A stretch of 16,302 nucleotides of DNA from a virus, in the UHGV virus genome UHGV-0148496. One strand, 5' to 3'. How positions within the stretch are numbered: the first letter of the stretch is position 1; the number at the start of each line of letters is the position of its first letter. Of this stretch, positions 6,001 to 9,000 are shown piece by piece. Position numbers: made by a program.

Positions 6001-9000
6001 CGCCTGCTGGAAGTCATCGAACAGATCGGGAGTTACTCAAAGCAGATTCGTTCGGCAATCGAAGATGGGGTAGTGGAGCCACACGAGCAGACAGCAATTA
6101 ATGATGAGTTGTATCTGTCAATTTCGAAGCTCCAGGAGCATGCAGCACTGGTCTACAAAATCTTTTGCGCTCCAGAAAAGAGTGACGCCCGCGAGTGTGC
6201 AGCTCCGGGCGTCGTGGCGTTTTGTGTCTGTGGAGAAACTAACGCATGAATAGTTTAACGGCAAATAACCGTTTGTCGCAACAGCTGGTGGTCAGCGTCG
6301 CTGAACACCTGTTGTTACGGCATGAATGCAGATTACCAAATCACCTGGCTGTAAGTAACCACAGAGAACTTTACCTGACTGTGGGGGGCGAGTTGTGCAG
6401 GAACTTAACCGCTGGTTTCGTGACGGAAGAGGACTTTATGTTCATGTTATTCGTTGGGAGCCAGAAACACAGCGCGTTATCTATCTTCGCAAAGACTACC
6501 CGCATGAGTGCTTTAGTCCTTTGTGGAAATTCAGGCGTGATTTTGTTGAGTGTGAAGGACCACCAGCATATTGATTCTGCAATTCCGGGACGTTACACTG
6601 CTCAGGCACCTTATAAAGCGGGTGCCGGGCGTGGAAACCCGAAATTCAATATAGAGCACAACCGCGCTCATGCGGTTTTTTCGTGTCATGAGCATCGTTA
6701 CGCCCAAATTATGGTGGGGCGTGCAGGGCCAACTTCGGTTGGGCCGGGTTCTATGTTGACCGGTATTTCCACCCCTGTACGTCTCACCACCTATATGGTC
6801 GTGGAAAGCCTTGGTGGTGAGTTCATTGAATTCAACATAGGGGCTGTCACCATGACTACTCTCCCAACCCAATCTCACCCTGAAATCACGATTATCAATG
6901 GTCGCGTTGTCACCACATCTCTTGCAGTAGCTAATTACTTTACTAAACGGCATGAGCGGGTTTTAGATAGAATTAGAAACCTCGAATGTTCCGCTGAATT
7001 TACTGAACACAATTTTGTGTTAAGTGAATACACCGACGCATCAGGCCGCAAACTCCCTTGTTACCAAATCACCCGCGACGGTTTTGCGTTTCTTGCCATG
7101 GGCTTCACTGGTAAACGTGCTGCCCGGTTCAAAGAGGCATACATAAATGCCTTTAACCAGATGGAAAAACTGCTTTCAAAGCCATCCACGCTGAGCGATG
7201 CCGCAGATAACGCCAGCGTGCTTTACTCCCACCTGTCGGTAATCCACAAGGTCTGGCTGCAGCAGCTTTATCCCATGTTGGCAAAAGCCGAATCCCCGCT
7301 GGCTGTAAGTCTGTATGACCGCATCAACGACGCGGCGCTACTGGCCAGTCTCATAAATTTGTCGCTGAACCCTTCAGAGGTAAGGGGGCGTAAATGATCC
7401 GGAATATTTTCAAACGGTTTACCAATCATACTTTCCGTTGTCCTCGTCCGGGTCAGTGGTACACCACGCCTGCAGGGCATGTTCTACGTGTTAGCCTGGT
7501 TGACCGTGAATGTCAGAAGGTGATTTGTGAACCGCTGGGCCGTAATTACCGCGTCAGTATGCCGCTTATAGCCTTTTGCTCCGGAAAAAACATGAAGCAT
7601 CTCGGAGGTGCTGCATGAGTATGGAGTTGATGGTTAAAGCGATGAAAATTCGAGTGGGAAATCCATTGCGAAAACTGGTTCTGATTAAGCTGGCTGATAA
7701 TGCCAGCGATCAGGGTGAGTGCTGGCCCAGCTATCAGCATATCGCTGATCAGTGCGAGATTAGCAAACGTTCTGTGATGAATCATATTGCGGCCCTCTGT
7801 GAGTCCGGGCTGGTAAAAAAAGTCACCCGGAAAGGTGAAAAAGGTAACTCAAGTAATATCTATCTCCTTCATCTGGATGGTGCAGGAGATTCACTAGGGG
7901 GTAGTGCAAATAATTCACTATCTGGTGCAGCAAATTCACCAGGTAGTGCAGGAGTTGCACCAGGGGGTAGTGCAGGAGATTCACCCAGAACCAGTCACTC
8001 TTTTGAACCAGTCAAAGAACCAGTCAATGAACCAATAGCTGTTGGTGAATCTGCTGATGAGTCTGTGCGAGTTCGTTCAAACCGACCGGAATACTCTCCG
8101 GAGTTTGAGCAGGCATGGCTGGCATACCCCAAACGTGCTGGTGGCAATTCAAAATCTGCAGCCTTCAAAGCCTGGAAAGCCCGTTTGAATGAGGGGGTAA
8201 ACCCCGAAACCATGCTGGAAGGTGTGAAACGCTACGCGGGCTGGGTATCTGCGATGGGTAACAGCGGCACACAATTTGTGAAACAGGCTGTCACGTTCTT
8301 TGGTCCGGATCGTCATTTCGAAGAATCCTGGGAAGTTCCTGCGGTATCTGCAGCCAGACGCGAGGACCCGTACTTCAAAGCCAGTTACGACAACGTGGAC
8401 TACAGCCAGATCCCGGAAGGATTCAGGGGGTGATCATGAGTCTTTTGAATGAAGTTCAGAAATTCATTGAAGCCCATCCGGGGTGTACTTCCGGAGACAT
8501 TGCGGATGCTTTTGCAGGTTACTCACGGCAGCGCGTTCTGCAGTCAGCAAGCAAGTTACGTCAGAGTGGGCGTGTGGCTCACCGTTGTGAAGGAGATACA
8601 CGCAGACATTTCCCGCGCCTGACTGAGAGAGCACAGGAGCCGGAACCACAACCAGTTCGTGAAACCAGACCTGTGCGCAATTTCTGTGTCGGCACTAACG
8701 ACCCGCAGGTGATTTTGTGCCTGACTCGCCAGGCGGAAGAACTGGAGTCCAGGGGCTTATTCCGTCGAGCTGCAACGGTGTGGATGGAGGCATTCCGTGA
8801 AAGCCACTCCCAGCCAGAACGAAACAATTTTCTGGCGCATCGTGAGCGGTGCTTACGGAAAAGCAGCAAGCGCGCTGCATCGGGTGAAGAGTGGTATCTG
8901 TCAGGGAATTACGTGGGGGCTTAATGAGTAATAAATATTGCCAGGCGCTGGTGGAGCTGCGGAACAAACCAGCCCATGAACTGAAGGAAGTGGGCGATCA

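What the first reader, a model, noticed from the sequence alone, without database searches (positions are those of the whole stretch)
6246..6851. Coding-frame ambiguity upstream of the Rha domain
The Rha domain begins at the internal ATG at 6852, yet the frame is open for 202 codons upstream from an ATG that is translationally coupled to the YmfL-like gene. Those 202 residues have an unusual Leu/Ser/His/Arg-rich composition. A different frame contains a short, protein-like ORF at 6395-6574 (GTG start after a GGGGGG/GAG SD-like stretch; VQELNRWFRDGRGLYVHVIRWEPETQRVIYLRKDYPHECFSPLWKFRRDFVECEGPPAY). This could be a genuine fusion protein, an overprinted small gene, or a frameshifted remnant of a separate ymfM-like gene.
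Basis: seen in the sequence. Interest (0 to 1): 0.45.

Follow-up and report, generated by a model that had tools for sequence, protein, structure and literature searches.

The report
RNA immunity switch inside antirepressor ORF
The puzzling 202 codons in front of the Rha gene are not a protein domain: they hold a separate small gene and a phage-P4-type RNA switch (two small RNAs, their promoter and terminator) that controls the antirepressor, so this is an ordinary member of a known kind of system.

Summary
ORF 6246-7397 (383 aa) and the out-of-frame GTG ORF 6395-6574 both exist.

The 202-codon "extension" is a composite:
- **DUF4222 gene (6395-6574).** A genuine stand-alone gene under purifying selection in its own frame.
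- **Promoter.** A sigma-70-like internal promoter at 6572-6599.
- **IsrK/seqA-type sRNA (6606-6682).** It carries an intrinsic terminator.
- **C4/CI-type antisense RNA (6707-6794).** Its two exposed segments are complementary to two words in IsrK. They are also complementary to the same two words next to the Shine-Dalgarno sequence of the Rha start (ATG 6852).

Across 35 specificity types in relatives, all three sites change together.

Amino-acid-level selection begins only at 6852 (pN/pS 0.25). Upstream, in the long-ORF frame, it is about 1. Even so, that frame stays open in 75 of 76 distinct alleles of this architecture, across several apparently in-frame length differences and many upstream contexts. 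The layout matches the nested eta/kil genes of phage P4. There, translation of the long ORF from upstream transcripts overrides RNA immunity.

The overprinted-gene reading is right and the frameshift-remnant reading is rejected. The fusion reading holds only as a probably translated ORF with no constrained N-terminal domain. This is a new member of a known kind, of modest interest.

The parts
5698..6249 (+). YmfL / CII (CP76) family gene. Its TGA stop (6247-6249) overlaps the ATG of the long ORF (ATGA).
   Evidence: Pfam PF06892, E 8e-15. RefSeq annotates it as ymfL in a 100% identical E. coli genome. Sequence read.
6246..7397 (+). Long ORF (383 aa), the counterpart of P4 eta. It starts upstream of the internal promoter, runs through the DUF4222 gene in another frame and through both RNA genes, and is in frame with the nested Rha gene. 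It is probably translated only from upstream (P_R-type) transcripts. The residues before 6852 are unconstrained.
   Evidence: The frame is open in 75/76 distinct alleles of this architecture, against 31/76 and 9/76 for the other two frames. Frame-0 pN/pS is 1.12, 1.04 and 0.88 upstream of 6852 and 0.25 downstream. P4 ORF199 has the same layout. BLASTP against P4 Eta gives 2e-6.
6246..6394 (+). Region A: the 5' part of the long ORF. No independent gene is detected here, and the region evolves faster than its neighbours.
   Evidence: No Pfam or PHROG hit. Identity is 74-81% in lineages where DUF4222 is 88-89% identical. pN/pS in the long-ORF frame is 0.37-0.65, no better than a frame full of stops.
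6383..6388 (+). GGGGGG run: the Shine-Dalgarno-like element of the DUF4222 GTG start. It is not a frameshift site.
   Evidence: It is G6 or G5 by substitution, with no length variation across relatives. GTG 6395 is conserved.
6395..6574 (+). DUF4222 gene (59 aa, GTG start). A genuine stand-alone small gene, overlapped in another frame by the long ORF.
   Evidence: Pfam DUF4222, E 9e-14. phrog_1343, E 2e-36. pN/pS is 0.13-0.23 in this frame. Homologues of 59-75 aa (mostly 59-62 aa) with a Shine-Dalgarno sequence plus ATG, GTG or TTG at the same position occur in Citrobacter, Kluyvera, Enterobacter and others.
6572..6599 (+). Putative constitutive internal promoter, the counterpart of P4 PLE and of the Gifsy-1 isrK promoter. 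-35 TTGATT at 6572-6577 and -10 TACACT at 6594-6599. The -35 overlaps the DUF4222 stop codon.
   Evidence: Read from the sequence. It scores 8/12, below the threshold of the scan tool. Promoter-like hexamers occupy the same position before the IsrK 5' end in every lineage aligned and in P4. The start site was not measured.
6606..6682 (+). IsrK / P4 seqA-type small RNA. It carries target words a1 (6631-6637, GTGGAAA) and b1 (6646-6654, TCAATATAG) and an intrinsic terminator (stem 6660-6677 followed by a T-run).
   Evidence: Rfam RF01394, 61.6 bits against a gathering score of 50. Terminator scan. Word positions. Complementarity to C4 is kept across 35 specificity types.
6707..6794 (+). C4 / P4 CI-type antisense RNA. 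Segment b' (6751-6759, CTATGTTGA) lies in a 12-nt hairpin loop. Segment a' (6766-6772, TTTCCAC) lies in the adjacent single-stranded stretch.
   Evidence: Rfam RF01695, 82.4 bits against a gathering score of 45. The minimum-energy fold equals the Rfam consensus, with a' and b' unpaired. In 26 alleles, 99.9% of cells are paired and 9 pairs show compensatory changes, against about 40% paired when the structure is slid.
6711..6713 (+). ATG at the 5' end of C4, matching the start of the translated leader ORF orf45 of Gifsy-1. Here it is in frame with Rha and no stop intervenes (47 codons).
   Evidence: It lies about +106 from the IsrK 5' end, against +107 in Gifsy-1 (PMC4825925). It is invariant in the alleles, though it was part of the search pattern.
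6801..6843 (+). Downstream target of C4, the counterpart of P4 seqC and P1 a2/b2. Word a2 is at 6801-6807 (GTGGAAA) and b2 at 6832-6840 (TCAACATAG). b2 runs into the Shine-Dalgarno sequence AGGGG (6839-6843) of the Rha start.
   Evidence: Word positions. b2 is 9/9 and a2 is 7/7 complementary to b' and a' in most of the 35 specificity types, and at least 8/9 and 6/7 in all but one. The local fold also pairs the Shine-Dalgarno sequence and the ATG.
6852..7397 (+). Nested Rha-family gene (181 aa), the counterpart of P4 kil. This is the only part of the long ORF under amino-acid constraint. It is presumed to be an antirepressor or regulator.
   Evidence: Pfam Phage_pRha, E 4e-31. TIGR02681. Several PHROG families are labelled Rha-like regulator or anti-repressor. 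pN/pS is 0.25. The ATG and its Shine-Dalgarno sequence are conserved in all alleles. The N-terminus MTTLPTQSHPEI resembles the MATTLTPSHPEF stretch of P4 ORF199, assigned to the Kil start from memory.

Best explanation
The stretch 6246-6851 is the control region of a P4/P1-type RNA immunity module. The module sits in the early rightward operon of a lambdoid E. coli prophage.

**Shown**
- The stretch contains a separate DUF4222 gene in another frame (6395-6574).
- It contains an IsrK/seqA-type sRNA with an intrinsic terminator (6606-6682).
- It contains a C4/CI-type antisense RNA (6707-6794).
- The two exposed segments of C4 (b' and a') are complementary to word pairs in IsrK (a1, b1).
- They are also complementary to the same words just upstream of the Rha start (a2, b2), where b2 abuts the Shine-Dalgarno sequence.
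- All three sites co-vary across 35 specificity types.
- Amino-acid selection starts at ATG 6852.
- The upstream frame is kept open in relatives.

**Inferred, by homology with P4 eta/kil, P1 c4-icd-ant and Gifsy-1 isrK-orf45-anrP**
- In the lysogen, a constitutive internal promoter (about 6572-6599) makes IsrK.
- Read-through of that transcript yields a precursor from which C4 is processed.
- C4 pairs with a2/b2 and blocks translation of the Rha regulator. The untranslated transcript is then terminated.
- IsrK carries decoy or partner sites for C4.
- When transcription comes from upstream (P_R), ribosomes start at ATG 6246, coupled to the ymfL stop through the ATGA overlap.
- They translate straight through the DUF4222 gene in another frame, then the promoter, the IsrK terminator, C4 and the target sites.
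- This makes those transcripts insensitive to the terminator and to C4. Rha sequence and the downstream replication genes can then be expressed.
- On this view the 202 upstream codons are translated for the act of translation, not for their sequence.
For: **RNA genes and their targets**
- Both Rfam hits exceed their gathering scores, and the scan finds a terminator.
- The C4 structure is 99.9% paired with 9 compensatory pairs.
- a' and b' are unpaired in the minimum-energy fold.
- Site positions were located exactly.
- There are 35 distinct (b', a') pairs. In most of them b1 and b2 are 9/9 and a1 and a2 are 7/7 complementary (alignment).

**DUF4222**
- Pfam and PHROG hits.
- pN/pS is 0.13-0.23 in its own frame and above 1 in the long-ORF frame.
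- Homologues are stand-alone, with a start codon at the same position.

**Where protein constraint starts**
- pN/pS in the long-ORF frame is 1.12, 1.04 and 0.88 for the three segments upstream of 6852, and 0.25 downstream.

**The frame is kept open**
- 75/76 alleles of this architecture are open for at least 35 codons upstream of the C4 ATG. The other frames give 31/76 and 9/76. The Gifsy-like class gives 5/29. Fisher's test gives 9e-18, uncorrected for relatedness.
- In 15 clusters at least 20% divergent, there are zero stops in that frame.
- Length differences appear to preserve the frame: 3-nt gaps in the spacer and leader, a 6-nt gap in region A, spacer insertions that read as about 12 and 36 nt but whose local pieces are not each multiples of 3, and one apparent 291-nt deletion.
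- A Shine-Dalgarno sequence plus ATG sits in frame just upstream of the promoter in many unrelated upstream contexts.
- The frame overlapping DUF4222 is stop-free in only about 4% of synonymous recodings. It is open in 5 module-linked clusters but has a stop in 9 clusters without the module.

**P4 precedent**
- ORF199 (eta) starts at an ATGA overlapping the orf88 stop. It is open across the IsrK-type and C4-type RNAs and is in frame with the presumed kil start.
- Its mechanism is summarised in PMC10111431.

**Gifsy-1 precedent**
- Translation from the AUG at the 5' end of the C4-like RNA is needed for expression of the downstream regulator (PMC4825925).

**Context**
- All genes downstream lie on the same strand behind the IsrK terminator.
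Against: - There is no direct evidence of transcription starts, RNA processing or translation for this element. Everything about expression is inferred.
- The statistics on open frames are not corrected for shared ancestry. The alleles are recombinants of a limited set of ancestors.
- RNA structure constrains C4 and part of IsrK. This alone removes many opportunities for stops.
- In the window's own context, the A and DUF4222 parts are 98-100% identical in most relatives. Selection on openness there rests on 4-5 lineages that form one clade.
- ATG 6246 has only a weak, distant GGAG upstream. An alternative in-frame start exists at 6438, after AGAGGA.
- The single in-frame deletion variant (L008) was not seen among the listed top matches from complete E. 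coli genomes.
- In the Gifsy-1-like class the same RNA module works without any long ORF. The long ORF is therefore not essential to the RNA switch.
Confidence: 0.7

Rival explanations
1. The RNA module and the DUF4222 gene are real, but the 383-aa ORF is never translated upstream of 6711 or 6852. It is open only because the GC-rich, structure-constrained RNA sequences rarely create stops and because the alleles share ancestry. The database protein is an annotation artefact of taking the longest ORF.
For: - pN/pS is about 1 in that frame upstream of 6852.
- Two RNA genes, a promoter and a terminator lie inside the ORF.
- NCBI's annotation pipeline (PGAP) calls the same DNA differently in different genomes: a 383-aa Rha protein, or DUF4222 plus a shorter Rha protein, or DUF4222 plus an 'ash family protein'.
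- The related Gifsy-like class lacks any long ORF.
- One other frame is also stop-free in a minority of alleles.
Against: - The frame is open in 75/76 alleles and in 15/15 divergent clusters, including the poorly conserved spacer. The other frames usually carry stops.
- Length differences appear to preserve the frame.
- An in-frame Shine-Dalgarno sequence plus ATG recurs in unrelated upstream contexts.
- Openness across DUF4222 has a chance of about 4%.
- In P4 the homologous long ORF is reported to be translated, with translation required for read-through (citing Forti et al. 1999).
Confidence: 0.2
2. The 383-aa product is a genuine two-domain protein. Its N-terminal 'Ash' domain has a protein-level function and merely overlaps the regulatory RNAs.
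For: - Pfam Phage_ASH matches aa 117-213 (E 2e-9).
- The PHROG 821 and 995 profiles include this region.
- The frame is conserved in relatives.
Against: - Amino-acid sequences in this region diverge freely. pN/pS is 0.88-1.12.
- The conserved residues are those encoded by conserved RNA stems. The variable residues track the RNA specificity words.
- Phage_ASH also matches the old P4 'cI protein' ORF, which lies over the CI RNA.
- Residues 50-110 are the off-frame reading of a gene constrained in another frame.
Confidence: 0.05
3. The stretch is a decayed gene. A ymfM-like or longer DUF4222-containing gene suffered a frameshift at the G-run, or a sequencing error there created the ambiguity.
For: A homopolymer GGGGGG sits exactly where the two frames overlap.
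Against: - The G-run varies only by substitution across relatives, never in length.
- All DUF4222 homologues start at the position of GTG 6395 and are mostly 59-62 aa long.
- The DUF4222 frame has a stop 12 codons upstream of the GTG.
- An identical sequence occurs in an independent complete genome.
- Homology to the E. coli K-12 e14 prophage stops at about 6259, so K-12 ymfM is unrelated.
Confidence: 0.02

Closest known systems
Satellite phage P4 immunity region: PLE promoter, seqA, CI RNA, seqC, and the nested genes eta (ORF199) and kil
   Same: - The order of parts is the same: upstream gene stop overlapping the long-ORF ATG (ATGA), internal constitutive promoter, IsrK/seqA-type RNA with terminator, C4/CI-type RNA, downstream complementary site at the start of a nested in-frame gene.
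- The same two Rfam families hit with similar scores.
- The sequence around the nested start is homologous: P4 AAIMATTLTPSHPEF against the window's GAVTMTTLPTQSHPEI (BLASTP 2e-6).
- In the published P4 mechanism, translation of eta from upstream transcripts prevents immunity-specific termination. This explains an open but unconstrained frame.
   Different: - The nested gene here is a 181-aa Rha-family regulator. In P4 it is Kil, recalled from Forti et al. 1999 as about 65 aa; the C-terminal part of ORF199 matches the Icd-like model NF033153.
- The host element is a lambdoid prophage with a LexA-like CI repressor, not a satellite whose only repressor is the RNA.
- The long ORF is about 110 codons longer at its 5' end. 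It overlaps a real DUF4222 gene in another frame before reaching its start.
- P4 has an extra stretch of about 100 nt between seqA and CI.
Gifsy-1 (Salmonella) isrK-orf45-anrP locus (Hershko-Shalev et al. 2016, PMC4825925)
   Same: - An IsrK sRNA with terminator read-through.
- A C4-like stable RNA (STnc1160) downstream.
- An AUG at about +107 that opens a translated leader over the C4-like sequence.
- A downstream antirepressor-like gene whose translation depends on upstream translation.
- It is likewise a lambdoid prophage.
   Different: - In Gifsy-1 the leader is a separate 45-codon ORF ending in AUGA at the anrP start, and there is no long ORF upstream. Relatives with exactly this layout form a distinct class: 29 of 105 alleles, with 3-17 codons open upstream in 27 of the 28 where a downstream gene was found.
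- Their downstream protein carries an ORF6N domain, not Rha.
- Here the leader is fused in frame to Rha and the frame continues upstream.
- The locus sits after antQ in Gifsy-1, and after cII-like and DUF4222 genes here.
Phage P1/P7 immI operon: c4 antisense RNA, icd, ant1/ant2
   Same: - A C4 RNA of the same Rfam family.
- Two short exposed segments (a', b') pair with one pair of sites upstream (a1/b1) and one pair downstream (a2/b2) at a ribosome-binding site.
- The control target is an antirepressor operon.
- Specificity is set by these short words, as with P1 versus P7 heteroimmunity. This point rests on established knowledge of the Citron & Schuster 1990 and Biere et al. 1992 work, not re-read here.
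   Different: - In P1 the blocked start is that of the small icd gene, and ant is controlled through transcriptional polarity. Here b2 abuts the Shine-Dalgarno sequence of the Rha gene itself.
- No ORF spanning c4 is described for P1.
- P1 Ant is not a Rha-family protein.
Pfam PF10554 Phage_ASH, NCBI 'ash family protein' and PHROG 821/995
   Same: Residues 117-213 of the long ORF match PF10554. The same DNA is annotated as 'ash family protein' in other E. coli genomes.
   Different: - These protein models describe the conceptual translation of the IsrK-C4-target region.
- The evidence here is that its conservation comes from the RNAs, not from a protein fold: pN/pS is about 1, and the model also matches the ORF over the P4 CI RNA.
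- Membership by score is met, but it says nothing about protein function.

Membership tests
Rfam RF01695 C4 antisense RNA (P1 C4 / P4 CI) | Covariance-model score above the curated gathering score over the full model | tested here: met
   82.4 bits against 45, model positions 1-87 of 87, at 6707-6794 (+).
Rfam RF01695 C4 antisense RNA (P1 C4 / P4 CI) | A long closing stem enclosing two hairpins, supported by compensatory changes | tested here: met
   In 26 alleles 99.9% of cells are paired, 9 pairs change on both sides, and slid controls give 34-48% paired. The minimum-energy fold equals the consensus.
Rfam RF01695 C4 antisense RNA (P1 C4 / P4 CI) | Two exposed segments complementary to a pair of sites upstream and a pair downstream at a translation start | tested here: met
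   b' (6751-59) and a' (6766-72) are unpaired. They are complementary to b1 and a1 in IsrK and to b2 and a2 at 6832-40 and 6801-07, next to the Shine-Dalgarno sequence. This is kept across 35 specificity types.
Rfam RF01695 C4 antisense RNA (P1 C4 / P4 CI) | Made by processing of a longer transcript (RNase P), and it represses the target in vivo | not testable with these tools
   Needs RNA end mapping and genetics.
Rfam RF01394 isrK / P4 seqA | Score above the gathering score, with a 3' intrinsic terminator | tested here: met
   61.6 bits against 50 at 6606-6682. Stem 6660-6677 followed by TTTTTT.
Rfam RF01394 isrK / P4 seqA | Its own promoter directly upstream | tested here: inconclusive
   TTGATT, a 16-nt spacer, then TACACT at 6572-6599 scores only 8/12 and falls below the scan threshold. 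Promoter-like hexamers at the same position in all lineages and in P4 argue for it. No start-site data.
P4-type nested genes eta/kil | A long ORF that begins upstream of the internal promoter, at a start overlapping the stop of the preceding gene | tested here: met
   ATG 6246 overlaps the ymfL TGA. P4 ORF199 ATG 8767 overlaps the orf88 stop in the same way.
P4-type nested genes eta/kil | The long ORF is open through the seqA-type RNA, the CI-type RNA and the downstream site, and is in frame with the nested gene | tested here: met
   Window. Relatives: 75/76 alleles. P4.
P4-type nested genes eta/kil | Translation of the long ORF prevents premature termination of upstream-initiated transcripts | not testable with these tools
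   Reported for P4. Here it is only inferred from an open but unconstrained frame.
P4-type nested genes eta/kil | The nested gene product is homologous to Kil (Icd-like cell-division inhibitor) | tested here: not met
   P4 ORF199 matches NF033153 Icd-like. The window protein matches only the Rha family model TIGR02681. Only the first roughly 15 residues resemble each other.
Gifsy-1-type isrK-orf45-anrP | A separate short leader ORF starting at the C4 5' AUG and ending at the downstream start (AUGA) | tested here: not met
   In the window no stop intervenes between ATG 6711 and ATG 6852 in that frame. True Gifsy-like relatives have a 45-codon leader whose stop overlaps the start.
Pfam PF09669 Phage_pRha / TIGR02681 | Score above the curated cutoff | tested here: met
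   107.8 bits against 29.9. 100.6 bits against 45.95. The domain begins about 20 residues after ATG 6852.
Pfam PF13973 DUF4222 | Score above the cutoff and a coding signature in that frame | tested here: met
   51.1 bits against 27. pN/pS 0.13-0.23. Stand-alone homologues.
Pfam PF10554 Phage_ASH as a protein domain | Amino-acid-level conservation beyond what the nucleotide sequence imposes | tested here: not met
   The score passes (38.1 bits against 26). However, pN/pS is 0.88-1.12 in that frame, and the model maps onto RNA genes here and in P4.

The most novel reading that the evidence does not exclude
In this lambdoid lineage the eta-like read-through ORF has been stretched about 110 codons upstream. 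It crosses a bona fide gene (DUF4222) in an alternative frame so that it can start by translational coupling at the stop of the cII-like gene. If so, a long 'translational bridge' is selected only for being open. It overprints a protein gene, a promoter, a terminator and two regulatory RNAs. Its job would be to let ribosomes carry P_R transcription through an RNA immunity module. The module itself would be a recombining, combinatorial code, with at least 35 a/b word pairs and tandem arrays of 2-3 modules, that sets which antirepressor is released in polylysogens.
Probability: 0.35. Interest if true: 0.55.

Novelty: new member of a known kind. Interest (0 to 1): 0.33.

Why it matters
**Annotation.** The same DNA is variously called a 383-aa 'Rha family regulator', an 'ash family protein', an 'antirepressor', a 'peptidase' or a 'transcriptional regulator' in the complete E. 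coli genomes and Stx, Salmonella and other phage records listed here. The two RNA genes and the DUF4222 gene are usually left out. The Pfam and PHROG 'Ash' protein models largely describe translated RNA genes.

**Biology.** The module is an RNA-based gate on an antirepressor-type regulator inside SOS-inducible, often Shiga-toxin-converting, lambdoid prophages. Its many specificity alleles suggest a system for prophage-to-prophage cross-talk or exclusion. The open but unconstrained frame is a clean natural example of translation selected for its effect on transcription rather than for its product. It is easy to test with stop-codon insertions.

Tried and rejected
- **Frameshift or slippage at the G-run 6383-6388.** Rejected. 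There is no length variation in relatives and the GTG start is conserved. Homologues are stand-alone.
- **Remnant of K-12 ymfM.** Rejected. Similarity to the e14 prophage ends at about 6259.
- **An apparent 'DHEH'/'DHQH' similarity suggesting a C-terminal frameshift in DUF4222.** Rejected. In other genera the DUF4222 3' end simply overlaps the start of the replication gene.
- **My early assumption that the long frame is broken in relatives.** It was based on one genome with a shorter Rha CDS, and it was wrong. The frame is open there too, and only the annotation differs.
- **A general rule that the downstream gene's frame is open upstream in every module.** It fails for the Gifsy-like class.
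- **The in-frame 291-nt deletion variant (L008).** I looked for it in complete E. coli genomes and did not see it among the listed top matches. It remains a single metagenome-derived observation.
- **Forti et al. 1999 (PMC94026).** It could not be read. I rely on the summary in PMC10111431 and on my own recollection of the abstract.
- **Gifsy-1 itself.** It did not appear among the listed DNA-similarity matches in the phage collection. The comparison uses the paper and relatives with the identical 45-codon-leader layout.
- **RNAcofold.** It does not model loop-loop pairing, so it gave no useful C4-target duplex. Ungapped complementarity counts were used instead.

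
Full report
**1. The observation.**
The window contains ORF 6246..7397 (+, 383 aa). Its ATG overlaps the TGA of the preceding YmfL/CII-family gene (gcATGAat). The Pfam Rha domain starts only at residue 223, about 20 residues after the internal ATG at 6852. A second ORF, 6395..6574 (+, GTG, 59 aa), lies in another frame behind a GGGGGG run. The composition remark is only partly right: His and Gly are raised and Lys and Asp are low, but Leu, Ser and Arg are ordinary. An E. coli chromosome carries 100% identical DNA and annotates the 383-aa ORF as a 'Rha family phage regulatory protein'.

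**2. What lies inside the 202 codons.**
A scan of the window against Rfam at gathering thresholds places two RNA genes inside the stretch.
- isrK (RF01394) at 6606-6682, 61.6 bits against 50.
- C4 antisense RNA (RF01695) at 6707-6794, 82.4 bits against 45.

The 3' end of isrK is an intrinsic terminator, stem 6660-6677 followed by T6. Directly upstream is a sigma-70-like pair, TTGATT 6572-6577 and TACACT 6594-6599. This is too weak for the scan tool. However, promoter-like hexamers occupy the same position in every lineage I aligned and in P4. The 59-aa ORF is a DUF4222 protein (Pfam E 9e-14, phrog_1343 E 2e-36).

**3. The RNA switch.**
C4 folds into the Rfam consensus. Two segments stay unpaired: b' (CTATGTTGA, 6751-6759) in a 12-nt loop, and a' (TTTCCAC, 6766-6772). 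Their complements occur twice:
- in IsrK, as a1 (6631-6637) and b1 (6646-6654);
- downstream of C4, as a2 (6801-6807) and b2 (6832-6840). b2 runs into the AGGGG Shine-Dalgarno sequence (6839-6843) of ATG 6852.

I collected relatives in two ways: through the Rha protein (80 IMG/VR loci) and through a C4 sequence pattern (120 more loci). Among the modules built like the window's there are 35 different (b', a') word pairs. In most of them b1 and b2 are 9/9 and a1 and a2 are 7/7 complementary to the cognate C4 (the alignment shows it directly). The a and b words are shuffled combinatorially. On 26 divergent C4 alleles the structure is 99.9% paired, with 9 pairs changed on both sides. Slid controls give about 40% paired. 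This is the hallmark of the P1 c4 (a'/b' against a1b1 and a2b2) and P4 CI (seqA and seqC) immunity RNAs.

**4. Which frames are protein-coding.**
Comparison with lineages 11-26% divergent in this part gives the following.
- **DUF4222 region (6395-6571).** pN/pS is 0.13-0.23 in the DUF4222 frame and 1.2-2.2 in the long-ORF frame.
- **DUF4222 homologues.** In Citrobacter, Kluyvera, Enterobacter, Atlantibacter and others they are 59-75 aa (mostly 59-62 aa) proteins. Each has a Shine-Dalgarno sequence plus ATG, GTG or TTG at the position of GTG 6395. Most are followed directly by the replication gene.
- **The G-run.** It changes only by substitution. It is the Shine-Dalgarno sequence of that gene, not a frameshift site.
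- **The module.** Against eight divergent alleles, pooled pN/pS in the long-ORF frame is 1.12 (promoter, IsrK and spacer), 1.04 (C4) and 0.88 (6795-6851). It is 0.25 from 6852 onward.
- **Region A (6246-6394).** It has no family hit and evolves fastest. Its substitution pattern does not single out a frame.

So the only sequences under amino-acid constraint are DUF4222 and Rha from ATG 6852.

**5. The surprise: the long frame is nevertheless kept open.**
In the 80 Rha loci the frame upstream of the Rha ATG is open for about 200-219 codons in most. This holds even though the IsrK-C4-leader part falls into alleles only 58-77% identical to the window.

The 105 distinct alleles split into two classes.
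- **The window's class (76 alleles).** The ATG at the 5' end of C4 (window 6711) is in frame with, and uninterrupted up to, the downstream gene. In 75 of 76 the same frame is also open for at least 35 codons upstream, that is, through the spacer, terminator and IsrK. The other two frames give 31/76 and 9/76.
- **The other class (29 alleles).** Only 5 of 29 are open in this way.

Fisher's test gives 9e-18, uncorrected for relatedness. In 15 clusters at least 20% divergent in the 75 nt before that ATG, none has a stop in this frame.

Further signs that the frame is protected:
- Length differences appear to preserve the frame: 3-nt gaps in the spacer and leader, a 6-nt gap in region A, longer spacer insertions whose local pieces are not each multiples of 3 but whose sum is, and one apparent 291-nt deletion.
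- In many unrelated upstream contexts, a Shine-Dalgarno sequence plus ATG sits in this frame a few codons before the promoter, for example GGGAGGTGCATCAATGAAGCGCCACCAGCAT|ATTGATT.
- For the window's own context, random synonymous recoding of the DUF4222 protein leaves the overlapping frame stop-free only about 4% of the time.
- That frame is open in the five DUF4222 clusters followed by the module. It carries a stop in the nine that are not. These form two clades, so this is weak evidence.

**6. The known system that explains this.**
In P4 the same two Rfam families hit at 8615-8692 and 8420-8507. ORF199 (8767..8168, minus strand) has these properties:
- it starts at an ATGA that overlaps the stop of orf88;
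- it is open across both RNAs;
- it contains the stretch ...AAIMATTLTPSHPEF..., which resembles the window's ...GAVTMTTLPTQSHPEI... (BLASTP 2e-6).

ORF199 is eta, and the nested in-frame gene is kil. As summarised in PMC10111431 (citing Forti et al. 1999, J Bacteriol 181:5225):
- The constitutive promoter is internal to eta.
- Its transcript is terminated early through the CI-seqA interaction and yields CI.
- Kil is translated only on read-through.
- Full-length Eta is translated only from the upstream promoter, coupled to the alpA-like gene.
- Its translation prevents termination.

I could not read the primary paper. My recollection of its abstract agrees with this summary. The window repeats this design part for part.

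In Gifsy-1 (PMC4825925) the AUG at about +107, the equivalent of 6711, opens a translated 45-codon leader. Its stop overlaps the start of the downstream regulator, and translation of the leader is needed for that regulator's expression. Relatives with exactly that layout form my second class. They have no long ORF, and their downstream protein carries an ORF6N domain.

The local fold of 6796-6854 pairs both the Shine-Dalgarno sequence and the ATG of Rha. This fits a start that needs upstream ribosomes, or relief from C4, to open.

**7. Context.**
The window is the immunity and early-right region of a lambdoid prophage. In order it carries:
- a LexA-like CI repressor on the minus strand (4655-5347);
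- a Cro-like gene;
- the CII-like YmfL gene;
- the module described here;
- a small ORF (7394-7618);
- a replication gene (HTH_36 and DnaD_N domains);
- PerC, Dam, RusA, KilA-N and DUF968 genes, and an AraC-type regulator;
- three tRNAs and STnc100;
- a NanS-like esterase.

Every gene to the right lies behind the IsrK terminator. That gives a reason for ribosome-driven read-through.

**8. Verdict.**
Shown by tool results:
- the two RNA genes;
- their three-way co-variation with the Rha translation start;
- the DUF4222 gene;
- the position where protein constraint starts;
- conservation of an open frame upstream.

Inferred: the promoter, RNA processing, repression of Rha translation by C4, and translation of the long ORF from upstream transcripts as an anti-termination device.

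The finding is a member of a known kind (P4 eta/kil with CI and seqA, P1 immI, Gifsy-1 isrK) in a lambdoid Rha-type setting. Others have already noted that lambdoid prophages carry IsrK-C4 pairs (PMC3632133) and that CI lies within a Bro-network gene. The locally new points are the overprinting of DUF4222 by the extended ORF, the split between P4-like and Gifsy-like architectures, and the size of the specificity repertoire.

Noticed in passing
IMG/VR loci L119, L120, L133, L171, L188 (for example L133: three C4 matches about 656 nt apart): Some prophages carry two or three complete IsrK-C4-regulator modules in tandem. Each has a different a/b specificity and its own Shine-Dalgarno sequence plus ATG in frame just before the internal promoter.
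   Followed up: partly
window 6594-6884 (aa 117-213 of the long ORF); P4 locus L102 8168-8584 (-): Pfam PF10554 Phage_ASH, the N-terminal part of PHROG 821/995 and NCBI's 'ash family protein' name match the conceptual translation of the IsrK-C4 region. They also match the obsolete P4 'cI gene product (AA 1-137)' CDS that lies over the CI RNA. With pN/pS of about 1, these protein models mostly capture RNA conservation.
   Followed up: yes
window 7394-7618 (+): A 74-aa ORF (phrog_1153, E 8e-45) starts at an ATGA overlapping the Rha stop. It shows a faint DUF4222-like motif (GQWYTTPAGHVLRVSLVDRECQKVI against NRWFRDGRGLYVHVIRWEPETQRVI; BLASTP E 0.047). In tandem-module prophages its first codons are fused to the next module's long ORF.
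   Followed up: partly
window 14702-14951 and 15028-15236 (+): A cluster of three tRNA genes (Met-CAT, Arg-TCG, Arg-TCT) is followed by an STnc100 sRNA match (134.7 bits) and a DUF1737/SASA esterase gene. This is the arrangement typical of the late-regulatory region of Stx-type lambdoid phages.
   Followed up: no
window 6257-6273 (+): A small hairpin, AACGG-CAAATAA-CCGTT, lies just after the start of the long ORF. Its stem is conserved even in the lineages where the rest of region A is 74-81% identical. Its function is unknown.
   Followed up: no
locus L008 (IMGVR_UViG_2693429642_000015): A variant in which the first 11 codons after the ymfL-coupled ATG are joined directly, in frame, to the module. 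It appears to be a deletion of about 291 nt that removes most of region A and all of DUF4222. It was not seen among the listed top matches in complete E. coli genomes, so it may be rare or an assembly artefact.
   Followed up: partly
locus L223 (E. coli CFSAN061770) 2340-2885: The same ymfL-DUF4222-module context is followed here by a short nested gene instead of Rha. The whole ORF is 181 aa and is annotated 'ash family protein'. The regulatory module is therefore a cassette that is recombined onto different downstream genes.
   Followed up: partly
locus L057 (IMGVR_UViG_2609459833_000015): One allele carries four single-base deletions scattered through IsrK and C4 and has lost the open frame. 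It is either a decaying copy or a low-quality assembly.
   Followed up: no
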